A stretch of DNA of 38,375 nt from a virus (IMGVR_UViG_2541047847_000005), one strand, 5' to 3'. Shown: positions 1 to 38,375, counted from the stretch's first letter. The notes: generated from the sequence alone by a model not told the origin. Program-made: numbers and translations.

Positions 1-1026
1 ATGAAAAAGATGATGATAGCCACACTGGCTGCCGCCAGCGTGCTGCTTGCCGTTGCAAATCAGGCGCATGCTGGCGCGACGCTTGATGCCGTTCAGAAAA
101 AAGGTTTTGTGCAATGCGGGATCAGTGATGGATTACCTGGGTTCTCTTATGCCGATGCTGACGGTAAGTTTTCAGGTATTGATGTAGATGTTTGTCGTGG
201 TGTTGCCGCTGCTGTATTCGGTGACGATACGAAAGTGAAATATACCCCGCTCACTGCAAAAGAACGCTTCACCGCTTTACAGTCAGGGGAGGTGGATTTG
301 CTCTCCCGTAATACGACCTGGACTTCATCTCGCGATGCCGGGATGGGAATGGCATTTACTGGCGTCACTTATTACGACGGCATTGGCTTCCTGACGCACG
401 ATAAAGCGGGGCTAAAAAGCGCGAAAGAACTGGATGGCGCTACCGTCTGTATTCAGGCGGGGACTGATACCGAACTCAACGTCGCCGATTACTTCAAGGC
501 AAATAATATGAAGTACACGCCAGTAACCTTCGATCGCTCAGACGAATCAGCGAAAGCTCTGGAATCAGGCCGCTGTGATACTCTGGCCTCGGATCAATCA
601 CAACTGTATGCCCTACGCATCAAATTAAGCAACCCAGCTGAATGGATTGTCTTACCGGAAGTTATCTCTAAAGAACCACTTGGGCCGGTAGTTCGTCGTG
701 GCGATGATGAATGGTTCTCGATTGTACGCTGGACGCTTTTCGCCATGCTGAATGCTGAAGAGATGGGCATCAATTCCCAGAACGTCGATGAAAAAGCGGC
801 TAATCCAGCAACGCCTGATATGGCACATCTGCTGGGTAAAGAAGGCGATTACGGCAAGGATCTGAAGCTGGATAATAAATGGGCCTTTAACATCATCAAA
901 CAGGTGGGTAACTACTCGGAAATTTTCGAGCGTAACGTAGGTTCAGAAAGCCCGCTGAAAATTAAACGTGGGCAAAATAATCTCTGGAATAACGGCGGTA
1001 TTCAGTACGCGCCGCCCGTGCGTTAA
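1..1026 (+). CDS. yhdW: periplasmic substrate-binding protein of an amino-acid ABC transporter (YhdW/AapJ-like)
   Basis: 341-aa ORF starting at position 1; N-terminal Sec signal peptide MKKMMIATLAAASVLLAVANQAHA; resemblance to E. coli YhdW recalled from memory, not searched; followed by a permease gene. Confidence 0.8.
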   Translation: MKKMMIATLAAASVLLAVANQAHAGATLDAVQKKGFVQCGISDGLPGFSYADADGKFSGIDVDVCRGVAAAVFGDDTKVKYTPLTAKERFTALQSGEVDLLSRNTTWTSSRDAGMGMAFTGVTYYDGIGFLTHDKAGLKSAKELDGATVCIQAGTDTELNVADYFKANNMKYTPVTFDRSDESAKALESGRCDTLASDQSQLYALRIKLSNPAEWIVLPEVISKEPLGPVVRRGDDEWFSIVRWTLFAMLNAEEMGINSQNVDEKAANPATPDMAHLLGKEGDYGKDLKLDNKWAFNIIKQVGNYSEIFERNVGSESPLKIKRGQNNLWNNGGIQYAPPVR

Positions 1027-1093
1027 GTCGGTGTGAGGTAACGAGCGTCGCTACGGCGGCGCTCTCTTCAGCGTTATGCTTTCCGAGGTTTCT

Positions 1094-1423
1094 ATGTCTC
1101 ATCGCCGCTCAACCGTTAAAGGCTCACTCTCTTTTGCCAACCCTACGGTTCGCGCCTGGTTATTCCAGATCCTTGCCGTTGTTGCTGTTGTCGGCATTAT
1201 TGGTTGGTTATTTCACAACACTGTAACGAATCTCAGTAATCGCGGCATAACATCAGGATTTGCTTTTCTTGACCGCGGGGCCGGTTTTGGCATCGTTCAG
1301 CATTTGATTGATTATCAGCAAGGCGACACTTACGGACGCGTTTTTATTGTCGGCCTGCTCAATACGCTACTGGTTTCTGCATTGTGTATTGTGTTCGCTT
1401 CTGTTTTGGGCTTCTTTATCTGA
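1094..1423 (+). pseudogene. yhdX: 5-prime fragment of amino-acid ABC transporter permease (YhdX/AapQ-like), truncated by prophage insertion
   Basis: ATG at 1094 preceded by GAGG; hydrophobic permease-like N-terminus; frame runs into TGA at 1421..1423 after only about 110 codons, and downstream sequence is phage-like. Confidence 0.6.
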
Positions 1424-1430
1424 TCAGACA

Positions 1431-1781: not shown

Positions 1782-2414
1782 TCATTCATCGTTCGTTGCA
1801 CGAACGCGCCTGATCTCCACTCTGGCAATCTGATCTGCTGGAATATAGGTTGCCAGAGCTCCCCAGTACTTATCAACCACGCCTTTATACTCTTCCCATT
1901 CGTTACTGCCTGAAGGGCTGCTGTGCGTGACGTAAAGAACCATATCGCCTTTATTCCCCAGGGTAAACGGACCGTTAGGCCACTCTTCAAAGTTCCCTGG
2001 CAGCCGTGACATCATACCGGAACCATCGCGAAGAATCACTCTGACCTCGGTAACGCTGAAGCCTGTTTGATCAAACATTGCCTGCCATGCTGAGCTGGTA
2101 TCGTCAGACCATGAAACATCATTATTCCACAGTAATCTGTACATCCATTTGCGACCGTACCTGCGCCACCACGCACCGCATGTAACGGCACACAGAAGTG
2201 CTGGTGGTGTTGCCAGCCAGGCATTCAGACCTGCCCACATAACAGCCTGGTAAGCCATCATTGCTGTCAGGCCAAAAATCAGCGAAGAAAAAGTCACCTC
2301 AATGGGCTTGTGGTGATCCTTCAGTCCCACATTCGCAATAAAATACCCAATATAGCCACTGGTCAGGGTCACCAGTGTTGCCCATGGCAGATTTAACAAC
2401 GAAACGTCAAACAT
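1782..2414 (-). CDS. membrane protein of unknown function (about 3 TM helices plus about 120-aa soluble C-terminal domain); terminal moron candidate
   Basis: ORF 1782..2492; preferred start is the ATG at 2414 (MFDVSLL...) with AGGGAG 5 nt upstream; hydrophobic segments LVTLTSGYIGYFIANVGL, FSSLIFGLTAMMAYQAVMWAGL, ALLCAVTCGAWW; lies after the early-operon terminator. Confidence 0.55.
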   Translation of the reverse strand: MFDVSLLNLPWATLVTLTSGYIGYFIANVGLKDHHKPIEVTFSSLIFGLTAMMAYQAVMWAGLNAWLATPPALLCAVTCGAWWRRYGRKWMYRLLWNNDVSWSDDTSSAWQAMFDQTGFSVTEVRVILRDGSGMMSRLPGNFEEWPNGPFTLGNKGDMVLYVTHSSPSGSNEWEEYKGVVDKYWGALATYIPADQIARVEIRRVRATNDE

Positions 2415-2452
2415 ATTTTCTCCCTGCATCCTGAATACTAAAGAGAGAGCAT

Positions 2453-2488
2453 AAAAAAAGCACGGTAAGGGGTCTACCGTGCTTTTAT
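2453..2488 (-). terminator. rho-independent terminator ending the early operon
   Basis: stem GCACGGTA / TACCGTGC with 7-nt loop (2460..2482); on the minus-strand transcript it is followed by TTTTTTTAT; on the plus strand by TTTTAT, so possibly bidirectional. Confidence 0.7.
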
Positions 2489-2528
2489 ACAATAAGGAGA
2501 TTTTTGAAAGGACTTTAACAAGCAGGAA

Positions 2529-2927
2529 TTATCTGGATTTGTTAACGTCTTTCGTCTCCTCTGGCAGATCTTCATCAAACAACCTGCCCTGCATCCGATC
2601 CAGTTCTTCTTTTCTGACCCGCTTAACCACGCTGTAGACCCACTGAAGCGAAACACCAAACTTGCGGGCCAGTTCGTGGTGGTTGCGTCCGTTAAACTCC
2701 CTGAAGATTTCCCGGTCGCGCTGACTGACCTTCCATACCATGCCCATCGGGAAATAAACGTTTTGCCCGCCCCAGACCTGCATCATTCGGTTCGCGACGG
2801 CCTGACCAATCTGGTCGGCAATTGCGGGCTCAATATCAATAATCTCGCGAACGGTCTCAGAGGTATGCTGTGCCAGCTCCACCAGGAGTTCCGGCCCTTT
2901 ACTTCGAAACTGATTCAGGTCGCTCAT
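2529..2927 (-). CDS. mor: Mor/C-family transcriptional activator of middle/late genes
   Basis: 132 aa; C-terminal motif FNGRNHHELARKFGVSLQWVYSVVKR matches the Mor/C family helix-turn-helix; last gene of the early operon. Confidence 0.7.
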   Translation of the reverse strand: MSDLNQFRSKGPELLVELAQHTSETVREIIDIEPAIADQIGQAVANRMMQVWGGQNVYFPMGMVWKVSQRDREIFREFNGRNHHELARKFGVSLQWVYSVVKRVRKEELDRMQGRLFDEDLPEETKDVNKSR

Positions 2928-3348
2928 GTTTTACTCCCGCAGCTCTGTGCTGCCACTTCTTCAGTTTCTCAATAACACTGCTTGCCTGTTCAGTATTGAG
3001 CCAGCGCAGGGCGCTGATGCCCGTTTCCCGCTTGATCCACCGCGCTAATGCATTTTCTGAACGGTCACGAACAATGCCGGCAGCAGCCATTTCAAGCCAT
3101 AGCGCACGAATTTTCCTGGACTGCGGATGGTTATCCAGCGGTAAACCGGAGCTGGCTTTTCTGGCTGGTTTAACGCGAAAGCCTTTCTTTTTCATGGATT
3201 CCAGCACGCAGTTTAGTTGTGTGGTATCCATTCCTTTGGTTGAGGCTTTACCGGTCAGCCCCTGTAACATCTGGCGGTAGGTGTCTTCATCCATACCCAG
3301 TTCATTACGGGCAATATGGATAAGCTGTATCAGGCGTTTTTTCTGCAT
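2899..3348 (-). CDS. gemA: GemA-like protein (Mu gp16 family)
   Basis: 149 aa; N-terminal QLIHIARNELGMDEDTYRQML motif typical of GemA; AGGAG 5 nt upstream of ATG; overlaps mor by 29 bp. Confidence 0.6.
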   Translation of the reverse strand: MQKKRLIQLIHIARNELGMDEDTYRQMLQGLTGKASTKGMDTTQLNCVLESMKKKGFRVKPARKASSGLPLDNHPQSRKIRALWLEMAAAGIVRDRSENALARWIKRETGISALRWLNTEQASSVIEKLKKWQHRAAGVKHERPESVSK

Positions 3349-3349
3349 A

Positions 3350-3556
3350 TCATCTCCTTTTTTTCAGTCTGTCGGCAACAATGTCGGTTGCAGCTGGCAG
3401 GGTGACTGGCCAGAACAACATGACGGCGGTCATGTACAGGATGTAATGCGCGGTGTCGTAGTGCCTGCCATAGCCCAGGGAACGATGAAGTCTTGCGCTG
3501 CATGATCCTGCGTACATATACCAGAAAAGAAAACAGACAATGGTTTCAGTAGTCAT
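3350..3556 (-). CDS. small membrane protein, hypothetical
   Basis: ORF 3350..3712, preferred start ATG at 3556 (MTTETIV...) with GGGGAGG upstream; hydrophobic. Confidence 0.4.
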   Translation of the reverse strand: MTTETIVCFLFWYMYAGSCSARLHRSLGYGRHYDTAHYILYMTAVMLFWPVTLPAATDIVADRLKKRR

Positions 3557-3776
3557 TCTGAATACCTCCCCATTCGATATGAATATTACGGGCAGCAATG
3601 ACAGGGTCGTTATTCCACCATGCACCTGACATGTATTTTTCAACCTGTTCGCGTCCGGCAATAACACCAATTGTGATCCCCGGCCTGACGTTCTTAAAAA
3701 AGGCGCGGGCAAAAAGGTATCTGGCAGATATTCGGCAGGCTTTTAATTTCCGGCTGTTACCTGATAGCGTAATCAT
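3546..3776 (-). CDS. hypothetical early protein (76 aa)
   Basis: ATG overlaps stop of the upstream gene (ATGA coupling at 3773..3776). Confidence 0.4.
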   Translation of the reverse strand: MITLSGNSRKLKACRISARYLFARAFFKNVRPGITIGVIAGREQVEKYMSGAWWNNDPVIAARNIHIEWGGIQNDY

Positions 3777-4456
3777 CTGGCCTCCAGTTTCTGTTGTTCC
3801 TGCCCACTGACCGGGCGGTGCAGTCTGACGTTCTGCCCTTCACGAAACCCCGCATAGCGCGAGGCGTCGCCATTGCGGCTTCTTCCCGGTTTACGCGCCC
3901 TGGTGGTTTGCGTCTGCGGGTATTTATGTTCCAGCCACTGTTGCATCAGTTCACGCTCATCATCGGTCAGGGCAAAGGACTGTATTTCACTGATAACGGC
4001 CAGTACCCAGCCTTCAGCAAACTGGTCTCCACGGCTGGTACGGGTGGCGTTTTTTATTCTTTTGTTCTGTGCGCTGATATACTGCTGACGCGCCTTTTTC
4101 AGCTGGCGGACCAGCACTTCCCAGGTGTACGCAGCCAGTGCCGCTCGTTCCCGGTTACCGTAGAACCCCACAGACGGATGCGTGCCGGGGTGAATGATGG
4201 AGTTAACACCAAATGCCTCGCGGATGATGTTCATCAGGCCCAGCATGTAGCGCGGTGGACGGAGACTGCCTGTCGGCCAGTAATGACTGATGGTTTCATC
4301 AATATCACTCATAGCAATGTCGGAATGTGTGATGCCGTGAACATCCATCAGTTTACGGGCTCGGCGCAGTGCCAGAGCGGCCTCGTGCGGGTTGCCGGAT
4401 GCGGCCAGCGCCAGCAACTTTTTCAGTTTCTCAATGTGTTTATTCTGGTCTGTCAT
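3773..4456 (-). CDS. hypothetical early protein with DUF2786-like N-terminus
   Basis: ORF 3773..4492, preferred start ATG at 4456 (MTDQNKHIEKLKKLLALAASGNPHEAALAL...) with GGAGA upstream; ATGA coupling with upstream gene. Confidence 0.5.
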   Translation of the reverse strand: MTDQNKHIEKLKKLLALAASGNPHEAALALRRARKLMDVHGITHSDIAMSDIDETISHYWPTGSLRPPRYMLGLMNIIREAFGVNSIIHPGTHPSVGFYGNRERAALAAYTWEVLVRQLKKARQQYISAQNKRIKNATRTSRGDQFAEGWVLAVISEIQSFALTDDERELMQQWLEHKYPQTQTTRARKPGRSRNGDASRYAGFREGQNVRLHRPVSGQEQQKLEAR

Positions 4457-4668
4457 TGTTCTGTATCTCCGGTATTTTTCTGCCGTTTCCATGCCCGGAC
4501 AGCGTCGGACAGCTCTTTCAGGCTGTATGCTGCTTTAAGCTTTTCCCATAACCACTGTGTTGTTATGTGCATCAGCAGGGCAGCCAGGGCTGCCCCCGCA
4601 CTGAGGCATGTCGCCAGGCCAGTAAGAATCAGTGTCCATGCGGTGATTTCCCTGAGTATGTCAGCCAT
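4453..4668 (-). CDS. small membrane protein (71 aa)
   Basis: GGGAGG upstream of ATG at 4668; one long hydrophobic segment. Confidence 0.4.
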   Translation of the reverse strand: MADILREITAWTLILTGLATCLSAGAALAALLMHITTQWLWEKLKAAYSLKELSDAVRAWKRQKNTGDTEQ

Positions 4669-4682
4669 TGAATGCCTCCCGG

Positions 4683-4979
4683 TTACTCGTTCGTGTAAAT
4701 CACGCCCAGTCGTGCAGCCAGACGTTCCAGTTTTTTCTGTTTGTGGAAGTCAATCAGCCGGTCCATCCCCTGAAGGCGCAGTTGCTCTGTCATGATTTCC
4801 ACGTCTGCCAGCTCTGCCGCGAGGTCACTTTCGCTGCCCTGTCCGTTCAGATTGCGGGCAGCACTGGCCGCCAGTTCAGCGGCCTCTTCTGTCAGTTTCA
4901 GGGCCTGTGCGTCCGGCCCGAAACGCTGCAGGGCCAGACGGTAGAGGGCGGTGCGGGTGAGTTCGGTGTTTCGTGTCAT
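4683..4979 (-). CDS. MazG-like nucleotide pyrophosphohydrolase-domain protein (tentative)
   Basis: 98 aa; EEAAEL ... AELADVEIM pattern resembles the EExxE...ExxD metal-binding motif of MazG-type NTP pyrophosphatases. Confidence 0.4.
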   Translation of the reverse strand: MTRNTELTRTALYRLALQRFGPDAQALKLTEEAAELAASAARNLNGQGSESDLAAELADVEIMTEQLRLQGMDRLIDFHKQKKLERLAARLGVIYTNE

Positions 4980-4988
4980 GCCGCGCCC

Positions 4989-5261
4989 TCAGTGCTTCCG
5001 GCTGACGGTGATGTGCAGGCCGCCTTCTGCAGTGGTTTCCATCCGGTACGGCACCTCATGCTCTGCCGTGTGGGTGAGTGTGTTCATCAGTACCTGCAGG
5101 GCAGCCTCCTTTCCGTTGGTCGCCACAATGGCCTGTGTGGCCATGCTGATTAGCGCCGTCAGGACGTGCTTCACATCGGTGAGGTCGCGGCATTCACACT
5201 CGTTGACATAGTGTTCAACAAGAGTTCGGGTGCGCTGTCGTGCTTCCTGTGGGGTAATCAT
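4989..5261 (-). CDS. hypothetical early protein (90 aa)
   Basis: AGGGAGG upstream of ATG at 5261; 4-bp overlap with next gene. Confidence 0.4.
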   Translation of the reverse strand: MITPQEARQRTRTLVEHYVNECECRDLTDVKHVLTALISMATQAIVATNGKEAALQVLMNTLTHTAEHEVPYRMETTAEGGLHITVSRKH

Positions 5262-5452
5262 TGCGCGTCCTCCCTGTCAGGGCGGGAGAATTCTATGACG
5301 GGCACGTCCGCCGAAAAATGCTGGCTGCAGTACGGGCAGACCAGGGTGACACGTACTGCAGGTATGTGATACTTACCGGACATCACGGCGATGGCGCTGT
5401 GAAAACGCAGGGCTGTTATATCCCTCTCGCACTGAATACATTTAAATATCAT
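5258..5452 (-). CDS. small zinc-ribbon protein (CxxC ... CxxC)
   Basis: 64 aa with CIQC and CPYC pairs; GAGGAG upstream. Confidence 0.4.
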   Translation of the reverse strand: MIFKCIQCERDITALRFHSAIAVMSGKYHIPAVRVTLVCPYCSQHFSADVPVIEFSRPDREDAQ

Positions 5453-5549
5453 AATTTAATTCTCCTCTGTTTCCGGCGTGCAGAAGCCCGCGGCGCTGAC
5501 GCCGGAATAAAAAAGAAAATGTTTTTATTAAATAATTAACGTGGTGTGT

Positions 5550-6080
5550 TTACTGCACATCCTGCTCAAAAGGAATTATTGAAAAATCCTCAATATCACT
5601 TTTTATGGTAATACCGGGAATATTTTTCACAGCCTCTTTTTCATTCAGAATGGCATCTTTATTTATTTCCTCCTTTACACGAATAAAGCGCTCAAGCCCC
5701 AGACGTCTCAGTAATTCAATAACATTATCCGCCCCGCGAATGCTGACTGACGGCGGACGGTTTCGCCACTGCACCTCGCCGGTGGTGAGGTTAGCGAACT
5801 TCACCTTCCCGTTGCCGGTCAGTTCATCACGGTGCGCCTCACACCATGTCTGGATACCGGACTGCAGTTCGGCCATGCGTTTTTTCAGGCTCTCGGTGAG
5901 CGGGGCATAACGTGCAGTGATGTCGCCAATGGTGTCATTCATTTCTGTTTCAGCCCTGACCAGTTCACGTTGCGCGTCACCAAGCAGTCTGATTCCCTCA
6001 ATGACCTCTTCGCGTGTCCCCGGCACCCAGAGTGCTGCTGCGGCTTTGATACGTTTTGCCCCTTTTGTACTTTTTGCCAT
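5550..6080 (-). CDS. gam: Gam-like host-nuclease inhibitor (Ku-like DNA-end binding protein)
   Basis: 176 aa; colinear with Mu Gam as recalled (RIKAAAALWVP, LVRAETEMNDTIGDIT, WCEAHRDELT, VKSDIEDFSIIPFEQ). Confidence 0.85.
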   Translation of the reverse strand: MAKSTKGAKRIKAAAALWVPGTREEVIEGIRLLGDAQRELVRAETEMNDTIGDITARYAPLTESLKKRMAELQSGIQTWCEAHRDELTGNGKVKFANLTTGEVQWRNRPPSVSIRGADNVIELLRRLGLERFIRVKEEINKDAILNEKEAVKNIPGITIKSDIEDFSIIPFEQDVQ

Positions 6081-6107
6081 ATTTTATGACTCCTCCTGTT
6101 GTGCTGA

Positions 6108-6377
6108 TTACCACAAAGATTCCGGCCACACGACGCGACAGCCGTGCAGTTCGAAAACGCCCTGACGGAAATGTCCCCTGTGGTCATGACCGGTATACAG
6201 ATAACAGGCCTTTCCCTGCTCAAGCATGCGCATGCAATGCGCACTCCGGGAAACGCGGATGACAGGTTTGTTACCCCTGATGGTGATGCTTTGTACATCC
6301 GTGTTCGTCGCCTTAAGCGCCATAATGGCTGACTGCACTTTGCTGATTTGCTGGTTGATACCTGTGGTGGATTTCAT
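6108..6377 (-). CDS. hypothetical early protein (89 aa) in the position of Mu kil
   Basis: starts 2 nt after the stop of the B-like gene; AGGGG upstream. Confidence 0.4.
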   Translation of the reverse strand: MKSTTGINQQISKVQSAIMALKATNTDVQSITIRGNKPVIRVSRSAHCMRMLEQGKACYLYTGHDHRGHFRQGVFELHGCRVVWPESLW

Positions 6378-6379
6378 TA

Positions 6380-7546
6380 TTAAACCCCTTTGACAACGTC
6401 AGCGTTGACCTGTGGAACCCCGATTTCAGCGGCCAGATTCATGGCGGCTATTACCAGGTTACTGACGGCCAGCGGATACAGCAGGCTGACCATATTTTTA
6501 CGATGACTTCCCGGATTGCTCAGGCGGGCACGTATGGCATCCACTGCGCTGGCGTCCATAATGTCCGTCAGTTGTTTACCGGCCCGTTGCAGTTTGAACG
6601 TCAGAAACTCTTCAAGGTTATTGTCCAGAGGCAGAAGTTCGACCACCTCACAGCGCTGAACGACTTCACGGACTTCCATATTGCGTTCAGACAGTTTTGT
6701 CGCCAGTTCCGGCTGGCCAATCAGCACGATGGACAGCAGTTTTTTGAAACCGGACTCCAGCTCAAAAAAGCGTTTGAGGTGTTTCAGTGTCGGAATGGGC
6801 AGACTGTGGGCCTCCTCAATCACCAGAACGTGGCTGAACCCCGCCTGGCTGCTGTCTTTCAGGACGCGATGCAACTGGCGAAAGCGGGCGTCCTGACTGC
6901 GTCTGATGCTTTCCAGTGGTGCGATGGTACTGATAATGGCTTCGGCAATCGCTGCTGCCTTCAGGGTTTTCCCTTTCACATCGTTGTCTTCCATAGCGAT
7001 GATGTATGGCTCGATAACAATTACCGGCGCATTCTCGCGGTTGATACGTTCAGTCAGGTCGCGGCGCAGCGTGGATTTACCCGCACCGGACTCACCGATG
7101 ACGGCCATAAACCCACCATGACGGGCTGTCTGGTACAACGCCTCACGCACGTAGCGAATATCCGGGGTGGTGAACACATCATCAGAACCCTGCATGGCTT
7201 CGTCGGCGAACGGGTCACGGAAAAGACCAAACGCTTTTTTGGTTGCTGGAAATAACACCTGTTTTTTGAGTAACATATTCTCTTCCTCACTGAGGCTCGT
7301 TTTATCTGTGGTACCCGCTGTACGGGGCGTGGCCGCGCCCTGTACAGCATCAAAACTCTTCGTTGTATCAATCCCCTGACTTTCCAGCCAGGACGCAAGA
7401 CGCCGGCGCACTTCTCCGGGGCTGGTGCGGGGCCACGCGTTATGATTCACAATCTGGGCCAGCGTGGCCTCAGAAACATCGACAGCTCTCGCCACCACCG
7501 CCTGTGGAATACGGGCCTCTTTCAGTTGCTGCTTCAGTACCAGCAT
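6380..7546 (-). CDS. AAA+ transposition helper ATPase (MuB-like target DNA activator)
   Basis: ORF 6380..7585, preferred start ATG at 7546 with GGAGGGAAA upstream; Walker A GESGAGKST; Walker B-like HVLVIEEAH; immediately downstream of the transposase. Confidence 0.8.
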   Translation of the reverse strand: MLVLKQQLKEARIPQAVVARAVDVSEATLAQIVNHNAWPRTSPGEVRRRLASWLESQGIDTTKSFDAVQGAATPRTAGTTDKTSLSEEENMLLKKQVLFPATKKAFGLFRDPFADEAMQGSDDVFTTPDIRYVREALYQTARHGGFMAVIGESGAGKSTLRRDLTERINRENAPVIVIEPYIIAMEDNDVKGKTLKAAAIAEAIISTIAPLESIRRSQDARFRQLHRVLKDSSQAGFSHVLVIEEAHSLPIPTLKHLKRFFELESGFKKLLSIVLIGQPELATKLSERNMEVREVVQRCEVVELLPLDNNLEEFLTFKLQRAGKQLTDIMDASAVDAIRARLSNPGSHRKNMVSLLYPLAVSNLVIAAMNLAAEIGVPQVNADVVKGV

Positions 7547-7556
7547 GTTTCCCTCC

Positions 7557-9326
7557 TCAGTTGCCGTTAACAATGCTGATAACACTGCTGCTGGCCGGTG
7601 TGGTCAGCGTGGCCATGACTTCATCCAGTGCGGCTTCCGGTACGCCGTCCGGGTACTGTGCCGTTAACTGGCGGTAATGTTCCGGCGTCCAGGTAAGGCC
7701 GTCGGCGCTGAACTTATCGCGCAGGGCTTTCGCGGCCTCCACATGAGTCATGGGACGTTGTTCAGTGCGCGGCCCGCGTACGTCAGAGGCCTGACCACGC
7801 TTCGGCATATAGGCCGGAAGTGTGGTGTCGTCGATATGTTTATACGGGTCAAGCCGCCCGCCGAACGGCAGCGCCTTCGCCTTGCGTGCGGCGGCTGCAT
7901 CTGCGGCGTTGTCTGTACCGGTAACCAGCGCTTCAGTTTCTTTTGCCGCCATCTGTGCCGGGGTTTCCGGCAGGGCTTTGTAACTTTCGCCAAATACCGC
8001 CGCGCCTTCAGCAAAGCCAAACTCGTTCTTTCTGACCTCTTCGACCAGGAAGAACGTCTCGTGGCCGTCCTCACCGGTCAGAACCACCTGTGCCACATCG
8101 CTGCGCCATGGGTTACGGGTAATCATCAGTTTTTCACCAACCAGTACGCCCGGTACCGTTGATACGTCAAATTCAGTGCCCCGGAACGAGACACGAAGTT
8201 TTGGCGTGACTTTGCGGAGTTCTGGTGCCGCCACAGCCAGTTCACGACATACCTCAACGGAAGGCGCTTTTTTCAGCTGCTCAGCAGTAATCTTCAGCCA
8301 GATATCCGTGCGGGTTTTACCGTGGCGGCTGTGAACAGCCGTGGCGTTAAAGTGGCTGCGCCATTTCGCGGCCAGCGCGTTGAGTTCTTCCAGACTGTGA
8401 ACCGGCCGGAACTTCAGACCCGGCTCCAGCTTGCGTTCGATAATGTCCCGCGCCTTTTCCACCTGTCCGGTGGCGCGGGCGTTATGCGGCTTGTGCGCTA
8501 TCAGGTCAATGCCCAGTGAGCGGCACATGTTTTTCGTCATACCCGCGGTGTTTGCCGAGCCGGGGTCGAGATAGAGTATTTTTGGCACGCCGTGCAGCAC
8601 GTCTGCGCCGCCACGCTCCTGCATGGCGTTGATAAGCACAGAACACAGGTTCTCACCGGATTCCGCACCCGTCACATACTCAACGTAAATCCAGCCGCTG
8701 GCATGGTCGGTAATCTCATAACTCCACACGCGGTCACTGGCGATACGGGCAAGGTTAGCGGGCTTGTTCTTGTAGAATTTCGCGCTGTCCATCACCTGCA
8801 GCCCTTTGTGTCCATTGCTCAGGTAGTAAAGCGTGCAGAGCGAGGCATCAATCTGCCAGACGTGATTGGGATGCAGACTGGCCACTTCGGTATGCGGCGC
8901 AGGGGCATCCAGTTGTTCCGGGTGCAGGCCATAGTTACGCAGGGCACGGCTGATGGCATCTTCGGACAACGGGAAAAACTCACCGGTGGTTTCATCTGTT
9001 CTGCCTGCGGAGATAAAGCCGTTAGCCCGCAGGGTTTCCACTGCATCTGCGATGGAATAGAGACGCTTACCGTTCTTGCGGGTGGCCTCACGCAGTGTGG
9101 CAGATATCAGCGCGGCTTCGTCGCGGGTCAGGGCGCTGCGCCCGGCATCGGCGCGTTTTTTGCGTTTATCAGTCACAGAGACCTCCTTCAGCCTGCGCAG
9201 CAGAGTGGCGCGGGACATGCCAAGTTCAGCACAGGCAGCGTCGTATATTGCACCGCGTTTACCATGCCCCGCGTCACGTGCCGCGCGGGCGACATAAACC
9301 AGTCGTTCAGTCAGGGCAGCATTCAT
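7557..9326 (-). CDS. DDE transposase (Mu A-like, integrase-core fold)
   Basis: 589 aa; N-terminal HTH region; candidate DDE residues in WQIDAS, LYLDPGSAN and GQVEKARDIIE; GGAGG upstream. Confidence 0.85.
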   Translation of the reverse strand: MNAALTERLVYVARAARDAGHGKRGAIYDAACAELGMSRATLLRRLKEVSVTDKRKKRADAGRSALTRDEAALISATLREATRKNGKRLYSIADAVETLRANGFISAGRTDETTGEFFPLSEDAISRALRNYGLHPEQLDAPAPHTEVASLHPNHVWQIDASLCTLYYLSNGHKGLQVMDSAKFYKNKPANLARIASDRVWSYEITDHASGWIYVEYVTGAESGENLCSVLINAMQERGGADVLHGVPKILYLDPGSANTAGMTKNMCRSLGIDLIAHKPHNARATGQVEKARDIIERKLEPGLKFRPVHSLEELNALAAKWRSHFNATAVHSRHGKTRTDIWLKITAEQLKKAPSVEVCRELAVAAPELRKVTPKLRVSFRGTEFDVSTVPGVLVGEKLMITRNPWRSDVAQVVLTGEDGHETFFLVEEVRKNEFGFAEGAAVFGESYKALPETPAQMAAKETEALVTGTDNAADAAAARKAKALPFGGRLDPYKHIDDTTLPAYMPKRGQASDVRGPRTEQRPMTHVEAAKALRDKFSADGLTWTPEHYRQLTAQYPDGVPEAALDEVMATLTTPASSSVISIVNGN

Positions 9327-9329
9327 TGG

Positions 9330-10241
9330 TTATGCCTCCAGCCCGTTAATCTGTGGCGTCGGCTCAGTCAGCCATGAAGGCGCGGCATTGCCTGTTGGCT
9401 CATCCGGCAGGTCAAATGTGGAGCGCAGGCTACGCGCTGTGCTTTCCAGTTGACAGACCAGGCCTGCCATGAAGTCTCTGGGGGTATCAATCATGTTTTC
9501 AGCACAATATGCGCACAGCGTCTCAAAAGCGCTGGACAGTCGAACGGCGATGGCAGATTCCGCCTCAACCGCTAACGCGGTCACTTCTGCCCGCAGTTTC
9601 TTCACCTCTTCATCAGGCTCAGGTGGCTGAATACGGGATTTCTTCTCCAGTCTGGTGGAGAGTGAGTCTATTTTTTCATTTTTGTCGGCGAGTACGCGCT
9701 GTTGTGCTGCGTTGGTTTCGCGCGCTTCGCGCAGGGCCTGACGCAATTCACGTACTGACATGCGATCAACATCGTCAAGCGTCAGTCCGGCAACTGTGCC
9801 ACCGTCGGCCAGTTCAGCAAGGTCGTCGTCATCTTCAGCAACAAGTTCAAATAATTTTGCCTTACCTAAAAGCGACAACGTTGTCGCTTTTGGCTCTAGT
9901 TTTGGTGAAAGGTATTTCAAAGATGCTTTCATCATTCGTTGTGCTGCGCGCACATGCAGACCAAGTTGTTCTTCTACAATTCCAACAAAGTCCCCGTGAG
10001 GTTCATTTTCTTTGAGAATAATAAGTCGTTTACCTGCTTCCAGCATGGCCTCAGCGCTCTGTGCCATATAAAACCGAGCCTCATGAACTATGCGATCACG
10101 CTCATAGGGCTGACCATCGCCAAACTGCTGCATGATCTCCATACGATGCTGTGTCATGGCGTTCAGACTGACATTGAGATCATCCGACAGCGGTACCTCG
10201 GCGTTCAGTTCAGTGTTAATCGGTGATTTGGTGCGTCCCAT
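9330..10241 (-). CDS. hypothetical early protein (303 aa), acidic and coiled-coil rich
   Basis: AAGGAG 6 nt upstream of ATG at 10241; lies between the regulators and the transposase. Confidence 0.5.
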   Translation of the reverse strand: MGRTKSPINTELNAEVPLSDDLNVSLNAMTQHRMEIMQQFGDGQPYERDRIVHEARFYMAQSAEAMLEAGKRLIILKENEPHGDFVGIVEEQLGLHVRAAQRMMKASLKYLSPKLEPKATTLSLLGKAKLFELVAEDDDDLAELADGGTVAGLTLDDVDRMSVRELRQALREARETNAAQQRVLADKNEKIDSLSTRLEKKSRIQPPEPDEEVKKLRAEVTALAVEAESAIAVRLSSAFETLCAYCAENMIDTPRDFMAGLVCQLESTARSLRSTFDLPDEPTGNAAPSWLTEPTPQINGLEA

Positions 10242-10251
10242 TTATTACTCC

Positions 10252-10560
10252 TTACAAACGACTACCTGAAATGACACGTTGGTTGATTTCGTTAATGCGA
10301 TCCTGTGCACGTGCCATCTCGTTACTGTGGGCCATAGCGATCTGCAGTAACTGGATGCCCGGCGCGAAACGCCCGTTTTCCAGTTTCAGGGCCAACCCTT
10401 CTTCAATGAGGGTGTTGAGTGCCCGGTTGATGTTTGCCGGTGACTCGTGCAGTGCTGCCGCCAGTTCACCGTTGGAAATACCGTTCAGGGCATGACCGCG
10501 CAGCGCTTTGAGTACCCGGAGGATGCGACTGCCGGAGCTTGAAACATTCGTCTTACTCAT
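10252..10560 (-). CDS. winged-helix DNA-binding protein (putative early regulator)
   Basis: ORF 10252..10566, preferred start ATG at 10560; segment ILRVLKAL...ISNGELAAALHESPANINRALNTLIEEGLA looks like a wHTH. Confidence 0.45.
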   Translation of the reverse strand: MSKTNVSSSGSRILRVLKALRGHALNGISNGELAAALHESPANINRALNTLIEEGLALKLENGRFAPGIQLLQIAMAHSNEMARAQDRINEINQRVISGSRL

Positions 10561-10612
10561 CTGCATACCTCTTTTGCGATATGTGATAACCTTTTACAAA
10601 GACTCAAAATCT

Positions 10613-11326: not shown

Positions 11327-11357
11327 CCGGAAAGCATTGTGCTTTCCGGTTTTGTTT
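11327..11357 (+). terminator. rho-independent terminator downstream of repressor gene
   Basis: perfect 10-bp stem CCGGAAAGCA / TGCTTTCCGG with 3-nt loop followed by TTTTGTTT; abuts the stop codon of the convergent methyltransferase gene. Confidence 0.6.
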
Positions 11358-12121
11358 CAGAAGTTGCAGATTACCAGTTCACGGCGCGGCGTGGATTTCC
11401 CCGCCAGACTGTAGTTGATGTTCACTGTCTGTATGTTCAGTCCAGTGAACACCTCGCGCATCTGTGGGATATCGTTCACCGAAATTATCATTTTTCCTCT
11501 GATGCACCGGGCCAGCTCTGCCAGCCGCGAGTAGTTCCCTTCAGGAAAATCCACACCATAGCCTTCCGTACCCAGGTACGGTGGGTCGCAGTAGAACAGT
11601 GTGTGCGGACGATCATAACGCTCAATGCACTGTTGCCAGTCCATGTGTTCTATGACTGTTCTGGAAAGCCGCAGGTGTGCTGCTGACAGTTCTTCTTCAA
11701 TACGCAGCAGGTTGAAGCGTGGCGGGGATGTGGTGGAGGTACCGAAGCTGTGCTCTGCCACCTTGCCGCCAAACGCCTGCTTCTGAAGGTAGTAGAACCG
11801 TGCCGCACGCTGGATATCCGTCAGTGTTTCTTCCGGGGTGATCTGCAGCCATTTGTAGATCTGACGGCTGACCAGCGCCCATTTGAACTGGCGGACAAAT
11901 TCTTCCAGGTGATGCTTTACCACCCGGTACAGATTCACCAGTTCACCGTTGATATCATTGATGACTTCGATCTTGCCGGGTGTCTTAAGAAAATAGAGCG
12001 CTGCTGCCCCACAAAACGGCTCCACATAACATTCATGCGCCGGAAACAGCGGCAGGATGTGTTTTGCCAGGCGACGTTTGCCACCAATCCATGGAACGAT
12101 GGGTAATGTCTTCATTTTCAT
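11357..12121 (-). CDS. orphan Dam-class (D12) N6-adenine DNA methyltransferase
   Basis: 254 aa; motif I FCGAAALYF and motif IV DPPY; no adjacent restriction endonuclease gene. Confidence 0.85.
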   Translation of the reverse strand: MKMKTLPIVPWIGGKRRLAKHILPLFPAHECYVEPFCGAAALYFLKTPGKIEVINDINGELVNLYRVVKHHLEEFVRQFKWALVSRQIYKWLQITPEETLTDIQRAARFYYLQKQAFGGKVAEHSFGTSTTSPPRFNLLRIEEELSAAHLRLSRTVIEHMDWQQCIERYDRPHTLFYCDPPYLGTEGYGVDFPEGNYSRLAELARCIRGKMIISVNDIPQMREVFTGLNIQTVNINYSLAGKSTPRRELVICNF

Positions 12122-35130: not shown

Positions 35131-35701
35131 GCCATTACAACTCCCGCCACCGCTTGAGGGTGATATCAGTCTCAGGACGCTGGGAAGACTGGCAGGACGG
35201 CTGGATAACATCGACCTGAGCGTACTGATGGTCTTTCTCGTCGATATCGTCGACAGTTCCGCGCTGCCATGGCTGGGCGAGCAGTTCTCACTGTCTGGCG
35301 ATGGCTGGGAGCTGGCGGAATCGGACGATGTTCGCCGCATGCTTATAAAAGCAGCCATCGAACTGCACCGGTATAAAGGGACGCCGTGGTCAATCCGGGA
35401 AGTTATCCGCCGTTTTGGCTTTGGTGAAGTGGATCTGATTGAAGGCACAGGTCGTCTCAGTTACGACGGCAATCGCAGCTATAACGGACTGTTTGTTCAT
35501 GGAGATGCAGCCGCCTGGGCAGTTTATCGCGTTATTCTGAAACAGCCCATTACTAACGATCAGGCCGCGATGCTGCGTCAGACGCTGGCTGCATTTGCAC
35601 CGGCCCGCTGCCATCTGGCCAGCCTGGAGTATCAGTCTGTGGCCATTCGCTATAACAATACTGCCATCCATGATGGCAGTTATAACCACGGGAGCAGTTG
35701 A
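35123..35701 (+). CDS. tail protein I (P2 gpI-like)
   Basis: 192 aa overlapping J and the fibre gene. Confidence 0.7.
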   Translation: MTEPLQLPPPLEGDISLRTLGRLAGRLDNIDLSVLMVFLVDIVDSSALPWLGEQFSLSGDGWELAESDDVRRMLIKAAIELHRYKGTPWSIREVIRRFGFGEVDLIEGTGRLSYDGNRSYNGLFVHGDAAAWAVYRVILKQPITNDQAAMLRQTLAAFAPARCHLASLEYQSVAIRYNNTAIHDGSYNHGSS

Positions 35702-35703
35702 TT

Positions 35704-37299: not shown

Positions 37300-37913
37300 T
37301 GAGTAACACTGCAGTTCTGGATGAAAACGGTATCGCCACTGTAGCGGGCGATATCACTGTATATCACTATGACGAGGAAACCCGGGAATACACCTCATCC
37401 TCTGTGGAGTATCTCGCCCTTGGGGTGGGTACTCCGGCACATTCGTGCGCCGATGCACCGCCGGAGGCAATTTCGGGTTACGTGGTTTGCCGGACTGCCA
37501 CGCTGAACGGGTGGGAGCATGTGCCTGATCACCGCGGCGAGACGGTATACAGCACGGAGAACGGTAACCCCGTTCTGATTACCCAACCGGGTGATTACCC
37601 GGCGGACACCACCACAAAACAGCCAGCCACGCCATGGGATACCTGGAACGGTGAGGCGTGGGTAACCGATACTGAACGGCAGCGAACCGCAGAGCTGGAG
37701 ACTGCCAGACTGCAACGCCAGAAACGGGTGGATCAGGCGATGAAGTCCATCGACCTCATCAACCTCAAACTGCGGGCAGGTCGCAGTCTGAAACCAGAAG
37801 AAACGGCAAAACTGAACGCCGTGCTGGATTATATCGACGAGCTGAACGCACTGGATATCAGCACGGCACCTGAAATCAGCTGGCCGGAAGCGCCACTGGC
37901 ACTTGCCAGTTGA
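37299..37913 (+). CDS. tail fibre assembly protein (Tfa)
   Basis: 204 aa; TAATG overlap with fibre gene; C-terminal APEISWPEAP motif typical of Tfa chaperones. Confidence 0.75.
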   Translation: MSNTAVLDENGIATVAGDITVYHYDEETREYTSSSVEYLALGVGTPAHSCADAPPEAISGYVVCRTATLNGWEHVPDHRGETVYSTENGNPVLITQPGDYPADTTTKQPATPWDTWNGEAWVTDTERQRTAELETARLQRQKRVDQAMKSIDLINLKLRAGRSLKPEETAKLNAVLDYIDELNALDISTAPEISWPEAPLALAS

Positions 37914-37919
37914 ACGGTA

Positions 37920-38375
37920 TCACGCCGCCCTCACGATATAGTTAAACGCGATATTGCGGGGGCGGGTTATGTTAAAGAATGCTCCGTTTAATTCGGCTTT
38001 TGCGCGACTGTTTGTTCCACCCAGCATTGCGTACCACAAATAATCGCTACGGTAATTCCCCGCAAACACCTTATCGCCGCCATAGTCAATATTATTTCCG
38101 TTACTCATGTACGAGATATCAAGCGCAGAATCGTTATCGTCATGACCGCCGACCAGTGTACCTTTCTGCCATGAAAGCAACTTACGCCCCTCGTCAATCT
38201 TGCGCCCGTCGTCCCATCCACGGATAAACTCACCGCGTAAATCGGGAAGACGGAGGGTCGGGTAGACTCTGGCCAGAACAGGATATTGTTCTTTGGTGAA
38301 CGTAGCTCCGTTGCACTGTAACCAGCCTGCTGGCGGTGTGGCGGTGGGCCATGGAACCGGTACACCAACAGGCAA
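37920..38375 (-). CDS. alternative tail fibre C-terminal module on opposite strand (5-prime end beyond window)
   Basis: translation shares about 70 aa (PVGVPVPWPTATPPAGWL...PDLRGEFIRGWDDGRK) with the plus-strand fibre and ends with the same NYIVRA tail; ORF is open to the window edge. Confidence 0.6.
   Translation of the reverse strand: MPVGVPVPWPTATPPAGWLQCNGATFTKEQYPVLARVYPTLRLPDLRGEFIRGWDDGRKIDEGRKLLSWQKGTLVGGHDDNDSALDISYMSNGNNIDYGGDKVFAGNYRSDYLWYAMLGGTNSRAKAELNGAFFNITRPRNIAFNYIVRAA
38200..38291 (-). repeat. right copy of 92-bp near-perfect inverted repeat
   Basis: reverse complement of 36889..36980. Confidence 0.8.

What the first reader, a model, noticed from the sequence alone, without database searches (positions are those of the whole stretch)
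4683..4979. MazG-like pyrophosphohydrolase candidate inside the early operon
The 98-aa protein carries an EExxE ... ExxD-like arrangement (EEAAEL, AELADVEIM) typical of all-alpha MazG-type NTP pyrophosphatases. Phage-borne MazG proteins have been proposed to degrade alarmones or other signalling nucleotides, which would be an anti-host or counter-defence function. The call rests on motif spacing only.
Basis: partly seen in the sequence, partly recalled or inferred. Interest (0 to 1): 0.4.

Follow-up and report, generated by a model that had tools for sequence, protein, structure and literature searches.

The report
Small MazG-type nucleotide pyrophosphatase in prophage
The 98-residue gene is real and very probably encodes a small MazG/HisE-type nucleotide pyrophosphatase made early by a Mu-like E. 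coli prophage; databases already label it this way, so the finding is ordinary, and what the enzyme degrades is still unknown.

Summary
Window 4683-4979 (minus strand) is a 98-aa gene with a Shine-Dalgarno site. It lies in the leftward early operon of a BcepMu-type transposable prophage and is under purifying selection (dN/dS about 0.16).

The EExxE...ExxD motif is weak evidence by itself (0.55% of shuffles). It is, however, invariant or nearly so across a very large phage family (more than 10,000 clusters at 50% identity), as are Q25, Q66, K83 and R86.

The family is PHROG 2245, "NTP pyrophosphohydrolase" (E=5e-34). RefSeq and IMG already use equivalent names. The direct links to curated MazG/PRA-PH models and to solved structures all point the same way but fall below thresholds. 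Three profile-profile tests were negative.

The protein is best read as a divergent minimal member of the all-alpha NTP pyrophosphohydrolase superfamily, not a MazG-family member in the strict sense. The AF2 model (pLDDT 94) is one long helical hairpin. Its active-site pattern matches phage MazZ.

The substrate is not determined. I favour dNTP-pool house-cleaning for replicative transposition. This is a new member of a known kind, of low to moderate interest.

The parts
4683..4979 (-). CDS of the 98-aa protein, a minimal all-alpha NTP pyrophosphohydrolase-like protein (PHROG 2245)
   Evidence: ORF list and translation. PHROG 2245 at E=4.8e-34. dN/dS 0.155. AF2 model with pLDDT 94.2 and helices 9-20, 22-44 and 50-91.
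4986..4990 (-). Shine-Dalgarno sequence GAGGG, 6 nt upstream of the ATG, overlapping the TGA stop (4989-4991) of the upstream 90-aa gene
   Evidence: Read directly from the sequence.
4875..4889 (-). Codons for E31-E32-A-A-E35, the first acidic (metal-binding) motif, on helix 22-44
   Evidence: E31 and E32 are invariant and E35 is at least 90% conserved in 101 relatives. The motif aligns with EEMGE of the Bacillus MazG structure 5ie9. It corresponds to E34/E35/E38 of MazZ (PMC8342488).
4803..4814 (-). Codons for E56-L-A-D59, the second acidic motif, at the start of the long helix 50-91
   Evidence: D59 and A58 are invariant and E56 is at least 90% conserved. The motif aligns with ELGD of 5ie9. 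In direct-coupling analysis it couples with E32 and E35. It corresponds to E50/D53 of MazZ.
4722..4742 (-). Codons for K80-Q-K-K83-L-E-R86, a conserved basic patch on the C-terminal half of the long helix; predicted phosphate-binding residues, probably acting across a dimer interface
   Evidence: K83 and R86 are invariant. E61-K80 coupling scores 3.05 against a shuffle maximum of 2.43. K83 is coupled or co-lost with E32, E35, E56 and D59. The role is inferred by analogy with R83 of MazZ.
2529..10566 (-). Context: the leftward early operon of the BcepMu-type prophage. Gene order is HTH regulator, DUF3102 protein, transposase, ExeA/AAA transposition protein, 89-aa protein, Gam, 64-aa Zn-ribbon protein, 90-aa protein, this gene, 71-aa membrane protein, DUF2786/DUF7168 protein, small ORFs, GemA, Mor.
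   Evidence: Pfam and PHROG scans. Same gene order in phage PhiKM and in RefSeq prophages.
2456..2486 (-). Terminator-like hairpin (13-bp stem followed by a T-run) directly after mor; the likely end of the early transcription unit
   Evidence: Consensus scan. This is a pattern match only and is not proof of function.

Best explanation
**What it is.** The gene encodes a minimal, single-domain member of the all-alpha (MazG/HisE-fold) nucleoside-triphosphate pyrophosphohydrolase superfamily. It is transcribed with the transposition and replication genes from the early promoter of a BcepMu-type transposable prophage.

**Shown here.**
- The protein is a confident long helical hairpin: helix 9-44, kinked at G21-P22, packs against helix 50-91.
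- E31/E32/E35 on one helix and E56/D59 on the other are conserved and coupled.
- K83 and R86 are invariant.

**Inferred.**
- The five acidic residues bind two or three Mg2+ ions.
- Two hairpins pair antiparallel, so that K80/K83/R86 of one chain reach the acidic cluster of the other. This would give composite active sites, as in MazZ and other small MazG enzymes.
- The enzyme cleaves the alpha-beta phosphoanhydride bond of a nucleoside triphosphate, giving NMP plus PPi.

**Most likely biological role (inferred).** The enzyme conditions the deoxynucleotide pool during the burst of replicative transposition. It would remove dUTP or other non-canonical dNTPs, or trim particular dNTPs. This phage has no dUTPase or any other nucleotide-metabolism enzyme. 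The substrate itself has not been determined.
For: **Family assignment.**
- PHROG 2245, 'NTP pyrophosphohydrolase', E=4.8e-34. Two further NTP-PPase/MazG-like PHROGs match at E=5e-4 and 4e-3.
- Public names agree: PGAP and IMG.
- The family is very large: 10,444 cluster representatives at E<=1e-3.

**Conservation.** Q25, E31, E32, L36, A58, D59, Q66, K83 and R86 are invariant, and E35 and E56 are at least 90% conserved. A set of charged and polar invariants like this points to an active site, not just a helical scaffold.

**Weak links to curated models and structures that all point to the same superfamily.**
- 17 of 66 relatives match Pfam MazG at E<=0.01, best E=2.2e-5. Three more match MazG-like and three match PRA-PH.
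- The consensus of the close relatives scores 18.4 bits on PRA-PH and 16.6 bits on MazG.
- The family profile picks up five small MazG-type structures among its top 11 PDB hits: 5ie9, 2q73, 2q5z, 2gta and 1vmg. For 5ie9, whose alignment was printed, EExxE and ExxD are in register.

**Structure.**
- The AF2 model has pLDDT 94.2 and pTM 0.80.
- The top Foldseek PDB hits are DCTPP1, iMazG and Bacillus MazG (probabilities 0.90-0.98). YpjD, HISN2 PRA-PH, AF1178 and E. coli MazG follow.
- BFVD hits named NTP pyrophosphohydrolase reach TM 0.72-0.81 at E down to 1.8e-4.

**Active-site pattern.** It matches the MazZ crystal structure: E34/E35/E38, E50/D53 and R83, with the pocket at a dimer interface (PMC8342488). 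Covariation supports the hairpin and places K80/K83 functionally next to the acidic cluster.

**Context.**
- Relatives always lie in phage replication or nucleotide modules.
- The gene is nearly core to the prophage lineage: 621 E. coli genomes carry it, against 637 that carry the transposase.
- The closest phage, PhiKM, has no dUTPase.

**Precedent for the role.**
- A mobile-element-borne MazG-like protein in E. coli substitutes for Dut (bioRxiv 10.1101/2020.05.25.114553).
- Cyanophage MazG prefers dGTP and dCTP (PMC6850273).
Against: - No curated model is passed. Pfam PRA-PH gives 15.1 bits against a cutoff of 21.3. NCBIfam HisE gives 14.5 bits against 42.7.
- The Pfam matches cover only the N-terminal half of the protein.
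- No Foldseek match to the PDB is significant: best E=0.10, TM no higher than 0.51.
- hhalign against E. coli MazG and against the PRA-PH phage-plasmid family is negative.
- The PHROG, BFVD, PGAP and IMG names are automated annotations. They are not independent of each other, and none rests on experiment.
- No member of this subfamily has been characterised biochemically, as far as my searches show.
- E. coli already has an efficient Dut, so a dUTPase role is not obviously needed.
- The dimer geometry with residues acting in trans rests on one robust covarying pair. That pair is driven largely by a single sub-clade.
Confidence: 0.5

Rival explanations
1. The protein is an alarmone hydrolase that acts as an anti-host or counter-defence factor. 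It would hydrolyse (p)ppGpp, or (p)ppApp, early in the lytic cycle. That would block the stringent response and alarmone-dependent abortive infection, for example by MazEF or by pathways downstream of TIR effectors.
For: Atd1, a single-domain MazG-like enzyme of Pectobacterium phage PcCB7V, dephosphorylates ppGpp (apparent Km about 50 uM). It lowers cellular (p)ppGpp and partly rescues cells and phage T5 from TIR-STING and retron-TIR (bioRxiv 10.1101/2022.06.09.495361). The window gene is expressed early and lies in the accessory part of the early operon, where Mu-type phages keep host-modulating genes.
Against: Purified cyanophage MazG neither binds nor hydrolyses (p)ppGpp (PMC6850273). No relationship between this subfamily and Atd1 could be shown. 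tblastn with the query and with a distant family member finds no Pectobacterium phage, and the Atd1 sequence could not be retrieved. There are no PADLOC hits. Relatives lie in replication and nucleotide modules, not in recognisable anti-defence islands.
Confidence: 0.2
2. The protein is a non-catalytic helical protein that keeps a MazG-like shape but works by binding a partner. For example, it could act as a regulator or anti-repressor, in the way staphylococcal phage dimeric Duts derepress SaPI Stl repressors.
For: The protein is very small and the model is a simple helical hairpin. Dimeric all-alpha Duts of staphylococcal phages are reported to have such moonlighting roles (PMC5608427, seen in the list; I did not read it in detail).
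Against: The invariant residues are exactly the acidic and basic residues expected for metal and phosphate binding. They are not a hydrophobic interaction surface. They are kept across phages of Firmicutes, Bacteroidota and Proteobacteria, which share no common partner protein.
Confidence: 0.07
3. The protein is not a MazG relative at all. It would be a generic coiled-coil or helical-hairpin phage protein in which an acidic motif arose independently, and the automated names would propagate a weak similarity.
For: Every direct comparison with curated MazG/PRA-PH models and with solved structures is below threshold. Designed helical bundles and other unrelated helical proteins score as well as MazG structures in the PDB profile searches. 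hhalign tests are negative. The motif occurs by chance in 0.55% of shuffles.
Against: The weak hits are not random. Five MazG-type structures are among the top 11 profile hits; for 5ie9, whose alignment was printed, the motifs are in register. Seven different all-alpha NTP-PPase entries are among the top Foldseek hits. Some relatives reach E=2.2e-5 on Pfam MazG. The full pattern of EExxE, ExxD and a downstream basic residue reproduces a crystallographic active site.
Confidence: 0.08

Closest known systems
Small single-domain all-alpha NTP pyrophosphohydrolases with solved structures: integron iMazG (2q5z, 2q73), Bacillus-conserved MazG (5ie9), B. subtilis YpjD (2gta), human and mouse DCTPP1/RS21-C6 (7mu5)
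   Same: They are about 100 residues long and all-helical. EExxE sits on one helix and ExxD on the next, with the same spacing. They are the top fold and profile hits, and they work as homo-oligomers.
   Different: Similarity is below significance: Foldseek E>=0.1 with TM 0.44-0.51, and PDB profile E 0.01-0.4. In the model, the helix carrying ExxD continues unbroken for 42 residues, and the Foldseek superpositions on those structures are poor (TM at most 0.51, rmsd 5-8 A). From my own knowledge of these structures they have a helix-turn-helix at that point. The C-terminal half, with motifs VEIMxEQ and KxxKLxRL, matches no curated model.
MazZ of Z-genome phages (cyanophage S-2L), a (d)GTP-specific MazG-HisE-fold enzyme
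   Same: It is a phage-encoded small enzyme. Its active-site pattern of E34/E35/E38, E50/D53 and R83 parallels E31/E32/E35, E56/D59 and K83/R86. [quoted passage not shown]
   Different: No sequence match was detected. MazZ has two extra C-terminal beta-strands and sits in a purZ-datZ gene triad, which is absent here. Nothing suggests Z-DNA in this prophage.
Atd1 of Pectobacterium phage PcCB7V, a MazG-like (p)ppGpp-depleting anti-TIR factor
   Same: [quoted passage not shown]
   Different: No BLAST-level hit to Pectobacterium phages was found. The Atd1 gene was picked because it lies next to a phage nucleotidyltransferase gene, and no such gene was seen in this window.
MazG-like/PRA-PH dUTPase analogue on E. 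coli phage-plasmids (WP_085453089.1 of Rousset et al.; the pHCM2-type family of about 290 aa, alignment A4)
   Same: [quoted passage not shown] Its role in the nucleotide pool was shown genetically: it makes dut dispensable.
   Different: It is about 290 aa, passes Pfam PRA-PH (37 bits) and is embedded in a thyA-nrdAB-dhfr cluster. Profile-profile comparison with the window family is negative. I also did not confirm that the pHCM2 protein is the same protein as WP_085453089.1.
E. coli MazG (two tandem MazG domains, in the relA-mazEF operon)
   Same: It has the same superfamily chemistry, and EExxE/ExxD motifs are present.
   Different: It is 263 aa with two domains. hhalign shows no significant match, and Foldseek ranks it only 39th.

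Membership tests
All-alpha NTP pyrophosphohydrolase superfamily (MazG / HisE / dimeric dUTPase) | Acidic motifs EExx(E/D) and ExxD on two adjacent helices, 12-28 residues apart, conserved across relatives | tested here: met
   E31-E32-x-x-E35, then 20 residues, then E56-x-x-D59. These residues are invariant or at least 90% conserved in 101 relatives and are mutually coupled.
All-alpha NTP pyrophosphohydrolase superfamily (MazG / HisE / dimeric dUTPase) | All-helical fold superposable on solved members (the helical-hairpin module of the four-helix bundle) | tested here: inconclusive
   The AF2 model is all-helical with pLDDT 94.2. The top Foldseek PDB hits are DCTPP1, iMazG and Bacillus MazG (probabilities 0.90-0.98), but E>=0.10 and TM<=0.51.
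All-alpha NTP pyrophosphohydrolase superfamily (MazG / HisE / dimeric dUTPase) | Statistically significant sequence or profile similarity to established members | tested here: inconclusive
   Transitive evidence only. 17 of 66 relatives match Pfam MazG at E<=0.01, best 2.2e-5. PDB profile hits to five MazG-type structures come at E 0.01-0.4. hhalign against E. coli MazG and against a PRA-PH family is negative.
All-alpha NTP pyrophosphohydrolase superfamily (MazG / HisE / dimeric dUTPase) | Homo-dimer or tetramer with active sites at subunit interfaces | not testable with these tools
   Only monomer prediction was available. Covariation of E61 with K80, and of K83 with the acidic cluster, is suggestive.
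All-alpha NTP pyrophosphohydrolase superfamily (MazG / HisE / dimeric dUTPase) | Mg2+-dependent hydrolysis of NTP to NMP plus PPi | not testable with these tools
   This needs biochemistry.
PHROG 2245 (phage 'nucleoside triphosphate pyrophosphohydrolase') | Significant match to the family profile | tested here: met
   E=4.8e-34 and 119 bits, covering residues 1-97.
Pfam MazG (PF03819), MazG-like (PF12643) and PRA-PH/HisE (PF01503) | Score at or above the curated gathering threshold | tested here: not met
   The query scores 15.1 bits on PRA-PH against a cutoff of 21.3 and has no MazG hit. The consensus of the close relatives scores 18.4 bits on PRA-PH and 16.6 bits on MazG against cutoffs of 21.3 and 22. 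NCBIfam HisE scores 14.5 bits against 42.7.
HisE (phosphoribosyl-ATP pyrophosphatase of histidine biosynthesis) | Placement in, or fusion to, histidine biosynthesis genes | tested here: not met
   The gene lies in a phage early operon between gam and gemA/mor, with no his genes nearby.
Dimeric dUTPase family | Match to the dimeric dUTPase profile, or to the MGE-borne dUTPase analogue family | tested here: not met
   The Pfam scan at E<=1 returned only PRA-PH and UPF0102. hhalign against the pHCM2-type family is negative. This bears on membership only; dUTP as a substrate is not excluded.
Atd1-type phage (p)ppGpp hydrolases | Sequence relationship to Atd1, and activity on ppGpp | not tested
   The Atd1 sequence is not given in the paper text. 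No Pectobacterium phage appears among the tblastn hits.

The most novel reading that the evidence does not exclude
This subfamily has more than 10,000 clusters at 50% identity, is not covered by Pfam or NCBIfam at their curated thresholds, and is found in temperate phages of Proteobacteria, Firmicutes and Bacteroidota. It might be a distinct 'long-hairpin' class of nucleotide pyrophosphatase. Its conserved Q25 and Q66 and its K/R residues acting in trans might specify a signalling or defence-derived nucleotide, such as (p)ppGpp or (p)ppApp alarmones, or chain-terminating or otherwise modified NTPs made by host immunity. It would then be a widespread, unrecognised phage counter-defence enzyme and not a house-cleaning one.
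Probability: 0.15. Interest if true: 0.6.

Novelty: new member of a known kind. Interest (0 to 1): 0.25.

Why it matters
For this window it matters little, because automated pipelines (PHROGs, PGAP, IMG) already give the gene this name.

The wider point is that the subfamily is very large and confined to phage early and replication modules, is missed at the curated thresholds of Pfam and NCBIfam, and has no biochemically characterised member. It is carried by about 11% of complete E. coli genomes.

Knowing its substrate would show how temperate and transposable phages tune the host nucleotide pool. It would also show whether small MazG-type enzymes are in general house-cleaners, as the E. coli dUTPase analogue and cyanophage MazG suggest, or alarmone-targeting counter-defences, as Atd1 suggests.

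Tried and rejected
- **phmmer of the query against PDB sequences:** only noise (IWS1, EsrB).
- **NCBIfam:** only a sub-threshold HisE hit.
- **Profile searches of PDB sequences with three alignments:** MazG structures recur but never below E=0.01, and designed helical bundles and a STAS-domain protein intrude.
- **hhalign of the family against E. coli MazG:** nothing.
- **Direct link to the E. coli mobile-element dUTPase analogue:**
  - tblastn against plasmids found only Mu-like prophage copies.
  - My first candidate in pHCM2, the 131-aa gene between dhfr and thyA, turned out to be HAD-like.
  - The true PRA-PH protein is 309 aa. Neither it nor its family alignment matches the window family.
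- **'Bridge' relatives that pass Pfam MazG:** the ten I picked reach at most 21.2 bits against a cutoff of 22. The better relative behind E=2.2e-5 was not identified individually.
- **Longer relatives with extra regions:** no informative fused domains.
- **tblastn with the family consensus:** no match, probably because of the low-complexity filter.
- **PADLOC:** no hit for this gene or its neighbours.
- **Coupling analysis:** the first run had a coordinate offset. It was corrected.
- **Promoter and terminator scans:** counts no higher than in shuffles. Only the hairpin after mor and one promoter-like site upstream of the operon are worth noting.
- **HisE function:** rejected on genomic context.

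Full report
**1. The observation**

Window 4683-4979 on the minus strand is an ATG-initiated ORF of 98 codons. Its product is MTRNTELTRTALYRLALQRFGPDAQALKLTEEAAELAASAARNLNGQGSESDLAAELADVEIMTEQLRLQGMDRLIDFHKQKKLERLAARLGVIYTNE.

- A GAGGG ribosome-binding site lies 6 nt before the ATG. It overlaps the stop codon of the upstream 90-aa gene, and the gap between the two genes is 9 nt.
- The motif pattern on its own is weak evidence. It arises in 0.55% of composition-preserving shuffles. A second, clearly fortuitous, match lies in the Gam ORF.
- The gene is under purifying selection. dN/dS is 0.155 against the 73%-identical orthologue of Klebsiella phage KP12, at dS 1.4.

**2. Where it sits**

The window is a BcepMu-type transposable prophage in an E. 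coli-like chromosome.

- The nearest cultured relative is Escherichia phage PhiKM (genus Bcepmuvirus), 99% identical for this protein.
- The early genes run leftward on the minus strand. The order is HTH regulator, DUF3102 protein, DDE transposase, ExeA/AAA transposition protein, an 89-aa protein, Gam, a 64-aa Zn-ribbon protein, a 90-aa protein, this gene, a 71-aa membrane protein, a DUF2786/DUF7168 protein, small ORFs, GemA and Mor.
- The only strong minus-strand terminator-like hairpin follows mor.
- The segment occurs in 621 of 5,426 complete E. coli genomes, always on chromosomes and at unrelated sites. The transposase occurs in 637, so the gene is almost core to this prophage lineage.

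**3. What family it belongs to**

Direct comparison with curated libraries is weak.

- Pfam gives only PRA-PH at E=0.032: 15.1 bits against a cutoff of 21.3.
- NCBIfam gives only HisE at 14.5 bits against a cutoff of 42.7.
- phmmer against PDB sequences gives noise.

PHROGs is unambiguous. phrog_2245, 'nucleoside triphosphate pyrophosphohydrolase', matches at E=4.8e-34 over the whole protein. Two more NTP-PPase/MazG-like PHROGs match weakly.

Close homologues are confined to Enterobacterales prophages and are mostly called 'hypothetical'. An exhaustive HMMER search with their alignment found 10,444 cluster representatives at E<=1e-3 and 1,906 at E<=1e-10. None of the 120 best relatives from a second search carries a precomputed Pfam domain. 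The family is therefore very large, but it is missed at the curated thresholds of Pfam and NCBIfam.

The link to MazG/HisE is transitive, and every line points the same way.

- 17 of 66 distant relatives individually match Pfam MazG at E<=0.01, best E=2.2e-5. Three match MazG-like and three match PRA-PH.
- The ten relatives I checked individually peak at 21.2 bits, just under the 22-bit cutoff.
- The consensus of the close relatives scores 18.4 bits on PRA-PH and 16.6 bits on MazG.
- The family profile finds five small MazG-type crystal structures among its top 11 PDB hits: 5ie9, 2q73, 2q5z, 2gta and 1vmg, at E 0.01-0.4. For 5ie9, EExxE and ExxD align in register with EEMGE and ELGD.

Newer RefSeq records name the protein 'nucleoside triphosphate pyrophosphohydrolase family protein' (WP_001295929.1). 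IMG names it 'NTP pyrophosphatase (non-canonical NTP hydrolase)'.

Several tests were negative. hhalign of the family found nothing against E. coli MazG or against a PRA-PH-positive phage-plasmid family.

**4. Structure**

- Two AF2 runs agree. With 101 sequences the model has pLDDT 94.2 and pTM 0.80, and all five models lie between 93.5 and 94.2 (first run).
- The helices are 9-20, 22-44 and 50-91. This amounts to one long hairpin, kinked at G21-P22.
- Foldseek against the PDB gives no significant hit. The leading entries are DCTPP1 (E=0.10, TM 0.51), iMazG and Bacillus MazG. YpjD, HISN2 PRA-PH, AF1178 pyrophosphatase and E. coli MazG come further down (compare).
- Against viral predicted structures, the top hits are proteins named NTP pyrophosphohydrolase (TM 0.72-0.81, E down to 1.8e-4). 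Those names come from the same annotation stream.

**5. Active-site reading**

- In 101 relatives that are 27-46% identical to the query, the invariant residues are Q25, E31, E32, L36, A58, D59, Q66, K83 and R86. E35, E56, V60, I62 and M63 are at least 90% conserved.
- Mean-field direct-coupling analysis on 242 non-redundant sequences recovers the hairpin (pairs with i+j near 94, such as L36-V60 and L12-L84). It also couples E32 and E35 with E56 and D59.
- A second set of pairs has i+j near 141: E61-K80, E61-D77, E56-K83 and D59-K83. These cannot be contacts within a straight helix.
- E61-K80 scores 3.05 against a shuffle maximum of 2.43 and has a median bootstrap rank of 4 of 3,160. It is largely driven by one sub-clade that changes E/K to T/M.
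- I read this as a hint that the basic C-terminal segment meets the acidic cluster across an antiparallel dimer, or by fold-back of the helix.
- This fits the MazZ crystal structure. [quoted passage not shown] It also fits M. tuberculosis MazG, where four acidic residues bind Mg2+ and are required for activity (PMC10014863).
- The chemistry of the motif and its conservation are shown here. The dimer geometry and catalysis are inferred.

**6. What it does**

- Distant relatives always lie in phage early, replication or nucleotide modules. Neighbours include Gam and a replication organiser; a DnaC-like loader, methylases and RusA; D5 primase and NrdD/NrdG; and SSB. All lie upstream of terminase.
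- The family occurs in phages of Clostridium, Vibrio, Cellulophaga, Xanthomonas, Stenotrophomonas, Klebsiella and Escherichia.
- PhiKM has no dUTPase and no other nucleotide enzyme except a DNA adenine methylase. PADLOC models give nothing.

The experimental precedents diverge.

| Enzyme | Reported activity | Source |
|---|---|---|
| Cyanophage MazG | Hydrolyses dGTP and dCTP, not (p)ppGpp | PMC6850273, |
| MazZ | Specific for (d)GTP | |
| Mobile-element-borne MazG-like PRA-PH protein in E. coli | Makes dut dispensable | bioRxiv 10.1101/2020.05.25.114553, |
| Atd1 | Depletes (p)ppGpp and blunts TIR-based abortive infection | bioRxiv 10.1101/2022.06.09.495361, |

None of these could be tied to this subfamily by sequence.

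I therefore commit to an Mg2+-dependent (d)NTP pyrophosphohydrolase that conditions the nucleotide pool for replicative transposition. My confidence is about 0.8 for the enzyme class and about 0.5 once the dNTP-pool role is included. The alarmone or counter-defence reading is the main rival, at about 0.2.

**7. Comparison and novelty**

The protein works like the small single-domain MazG-type enzymes (iMazG, Bacillus MazG, YpjD, DCTPP1, MazZ). It fails the curated Pfam and NCBIfam thresholds, and its C-terminal half matches no curated model. [quoted passage not shown]

The class assignment is already made by PHROGs, PGAP and IMG, so the finding is ordinary: a new, uncharacterised member of a known kind. 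Some interest remains in the size of the uncurated subfamily and in its undetermined substrate.

Noticed in passing
window 1-1430 and about 1430-38375: The whole window is a BcepMu-type transposable prophage. It is inserted in an amino-acid ABC-transporter operon: a periplasmic binding protein is at 1-1026, and the permease ORF that starts at 1076 is cut off near 1425-1430. Copies of the same prophage sit at unrelated sites in other E. coli genomes (next to ycaL/cmk, and next to rstB/tus). The probiotic strain M-17 has three places that match.
   Followed up: partly
window 1782-2492 (-): An ORF of 236 aa lies beyond the terminator-like hairpin after mor, at the very end of the prophage. Its real start is probably near residue 27, which would give about 210 aa. 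It matches phrog_12870 (unknown function) and has no PADLOC hit. It is present in the M-17 copy but absent from the AVS0967 copy. It therefore looks like a variable cargo gene (moron), possibly for exclusion or defence.
   Followed up: partly
window 35698-38375: The tail-fibre gene (35698-37299, +) and the tail-fibre assembly gene (37299-37913, +) are followed on the opposite strand by a fragment that matches tail-fibre C-termini (37920-38375, -). The fragment runs into the window end. This is the layout of an invertible host-range segment, as in the Mu G and P1 C regions. Any invertase would lie outside the window.
   Followed up: partly
window 4453-4668 (-), 4989-5261 (-), 5258-5452 (-), 6108-6377 (-): Four small conserved early proteins of unknown function flank the gene: a 71-aa protein with a hydrophobic helix (phrog_3958), a 90-aa protein (phrog_3691), a 64-aa protein with two CxxC pairs (phrog_3401, Zn-ribbon-like) and an 89-aa protein (phrog_2041, named 'HI_1482 family' by PGAP). 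None matches PADLOC.
   Followed up: no
window 6380-7585 (-): The transposition ATPase next to the DDE transposase is an ExeA/AAA_22-type protein with an N-terminal HTH (phrog_296, 'DNA transposition protein'). Pfam returned no phage-Mu-specific family for it, only general P-loop/AAA families.
   Followed up: no
window 11357-12121 (-): A DNA methyltransferase gene (phrog_56, E=6e-101; annotated as DNA adenine methylase in PhiKM) lies on the minus strand between the regulatory region and the late genes. That is opposite to the orientation of the late operon.
   Followed up: no
L013 26832-27761 (-) (pHCM2, NC_003385.1): A 309-aa protein annotated 'hypothetical' lies between thyA and nrdB of the Salmonella Typhi phage-plasmid pHCM2. 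It passes Pfam PRA-PH (37 bits). It belongs to a family of about 290 aa found on phage-plasmid contigs of roughly 100-115 kb, with an abundant E. coli member. It is probably the type of MazG-like dUTPase analogue that Rousset et al. described; identity with WP_085453089.1 was not confirmed.
   Followed up: partly
family alignment, query positions 61, 68, 77 and 80: A sub-clade of about 10 family members replaces E61/K80 with T61/M80, together with C at position 77. The swap is coordinated, at positions 19 residues apart on the same predicted helix.
   Followed up: partly
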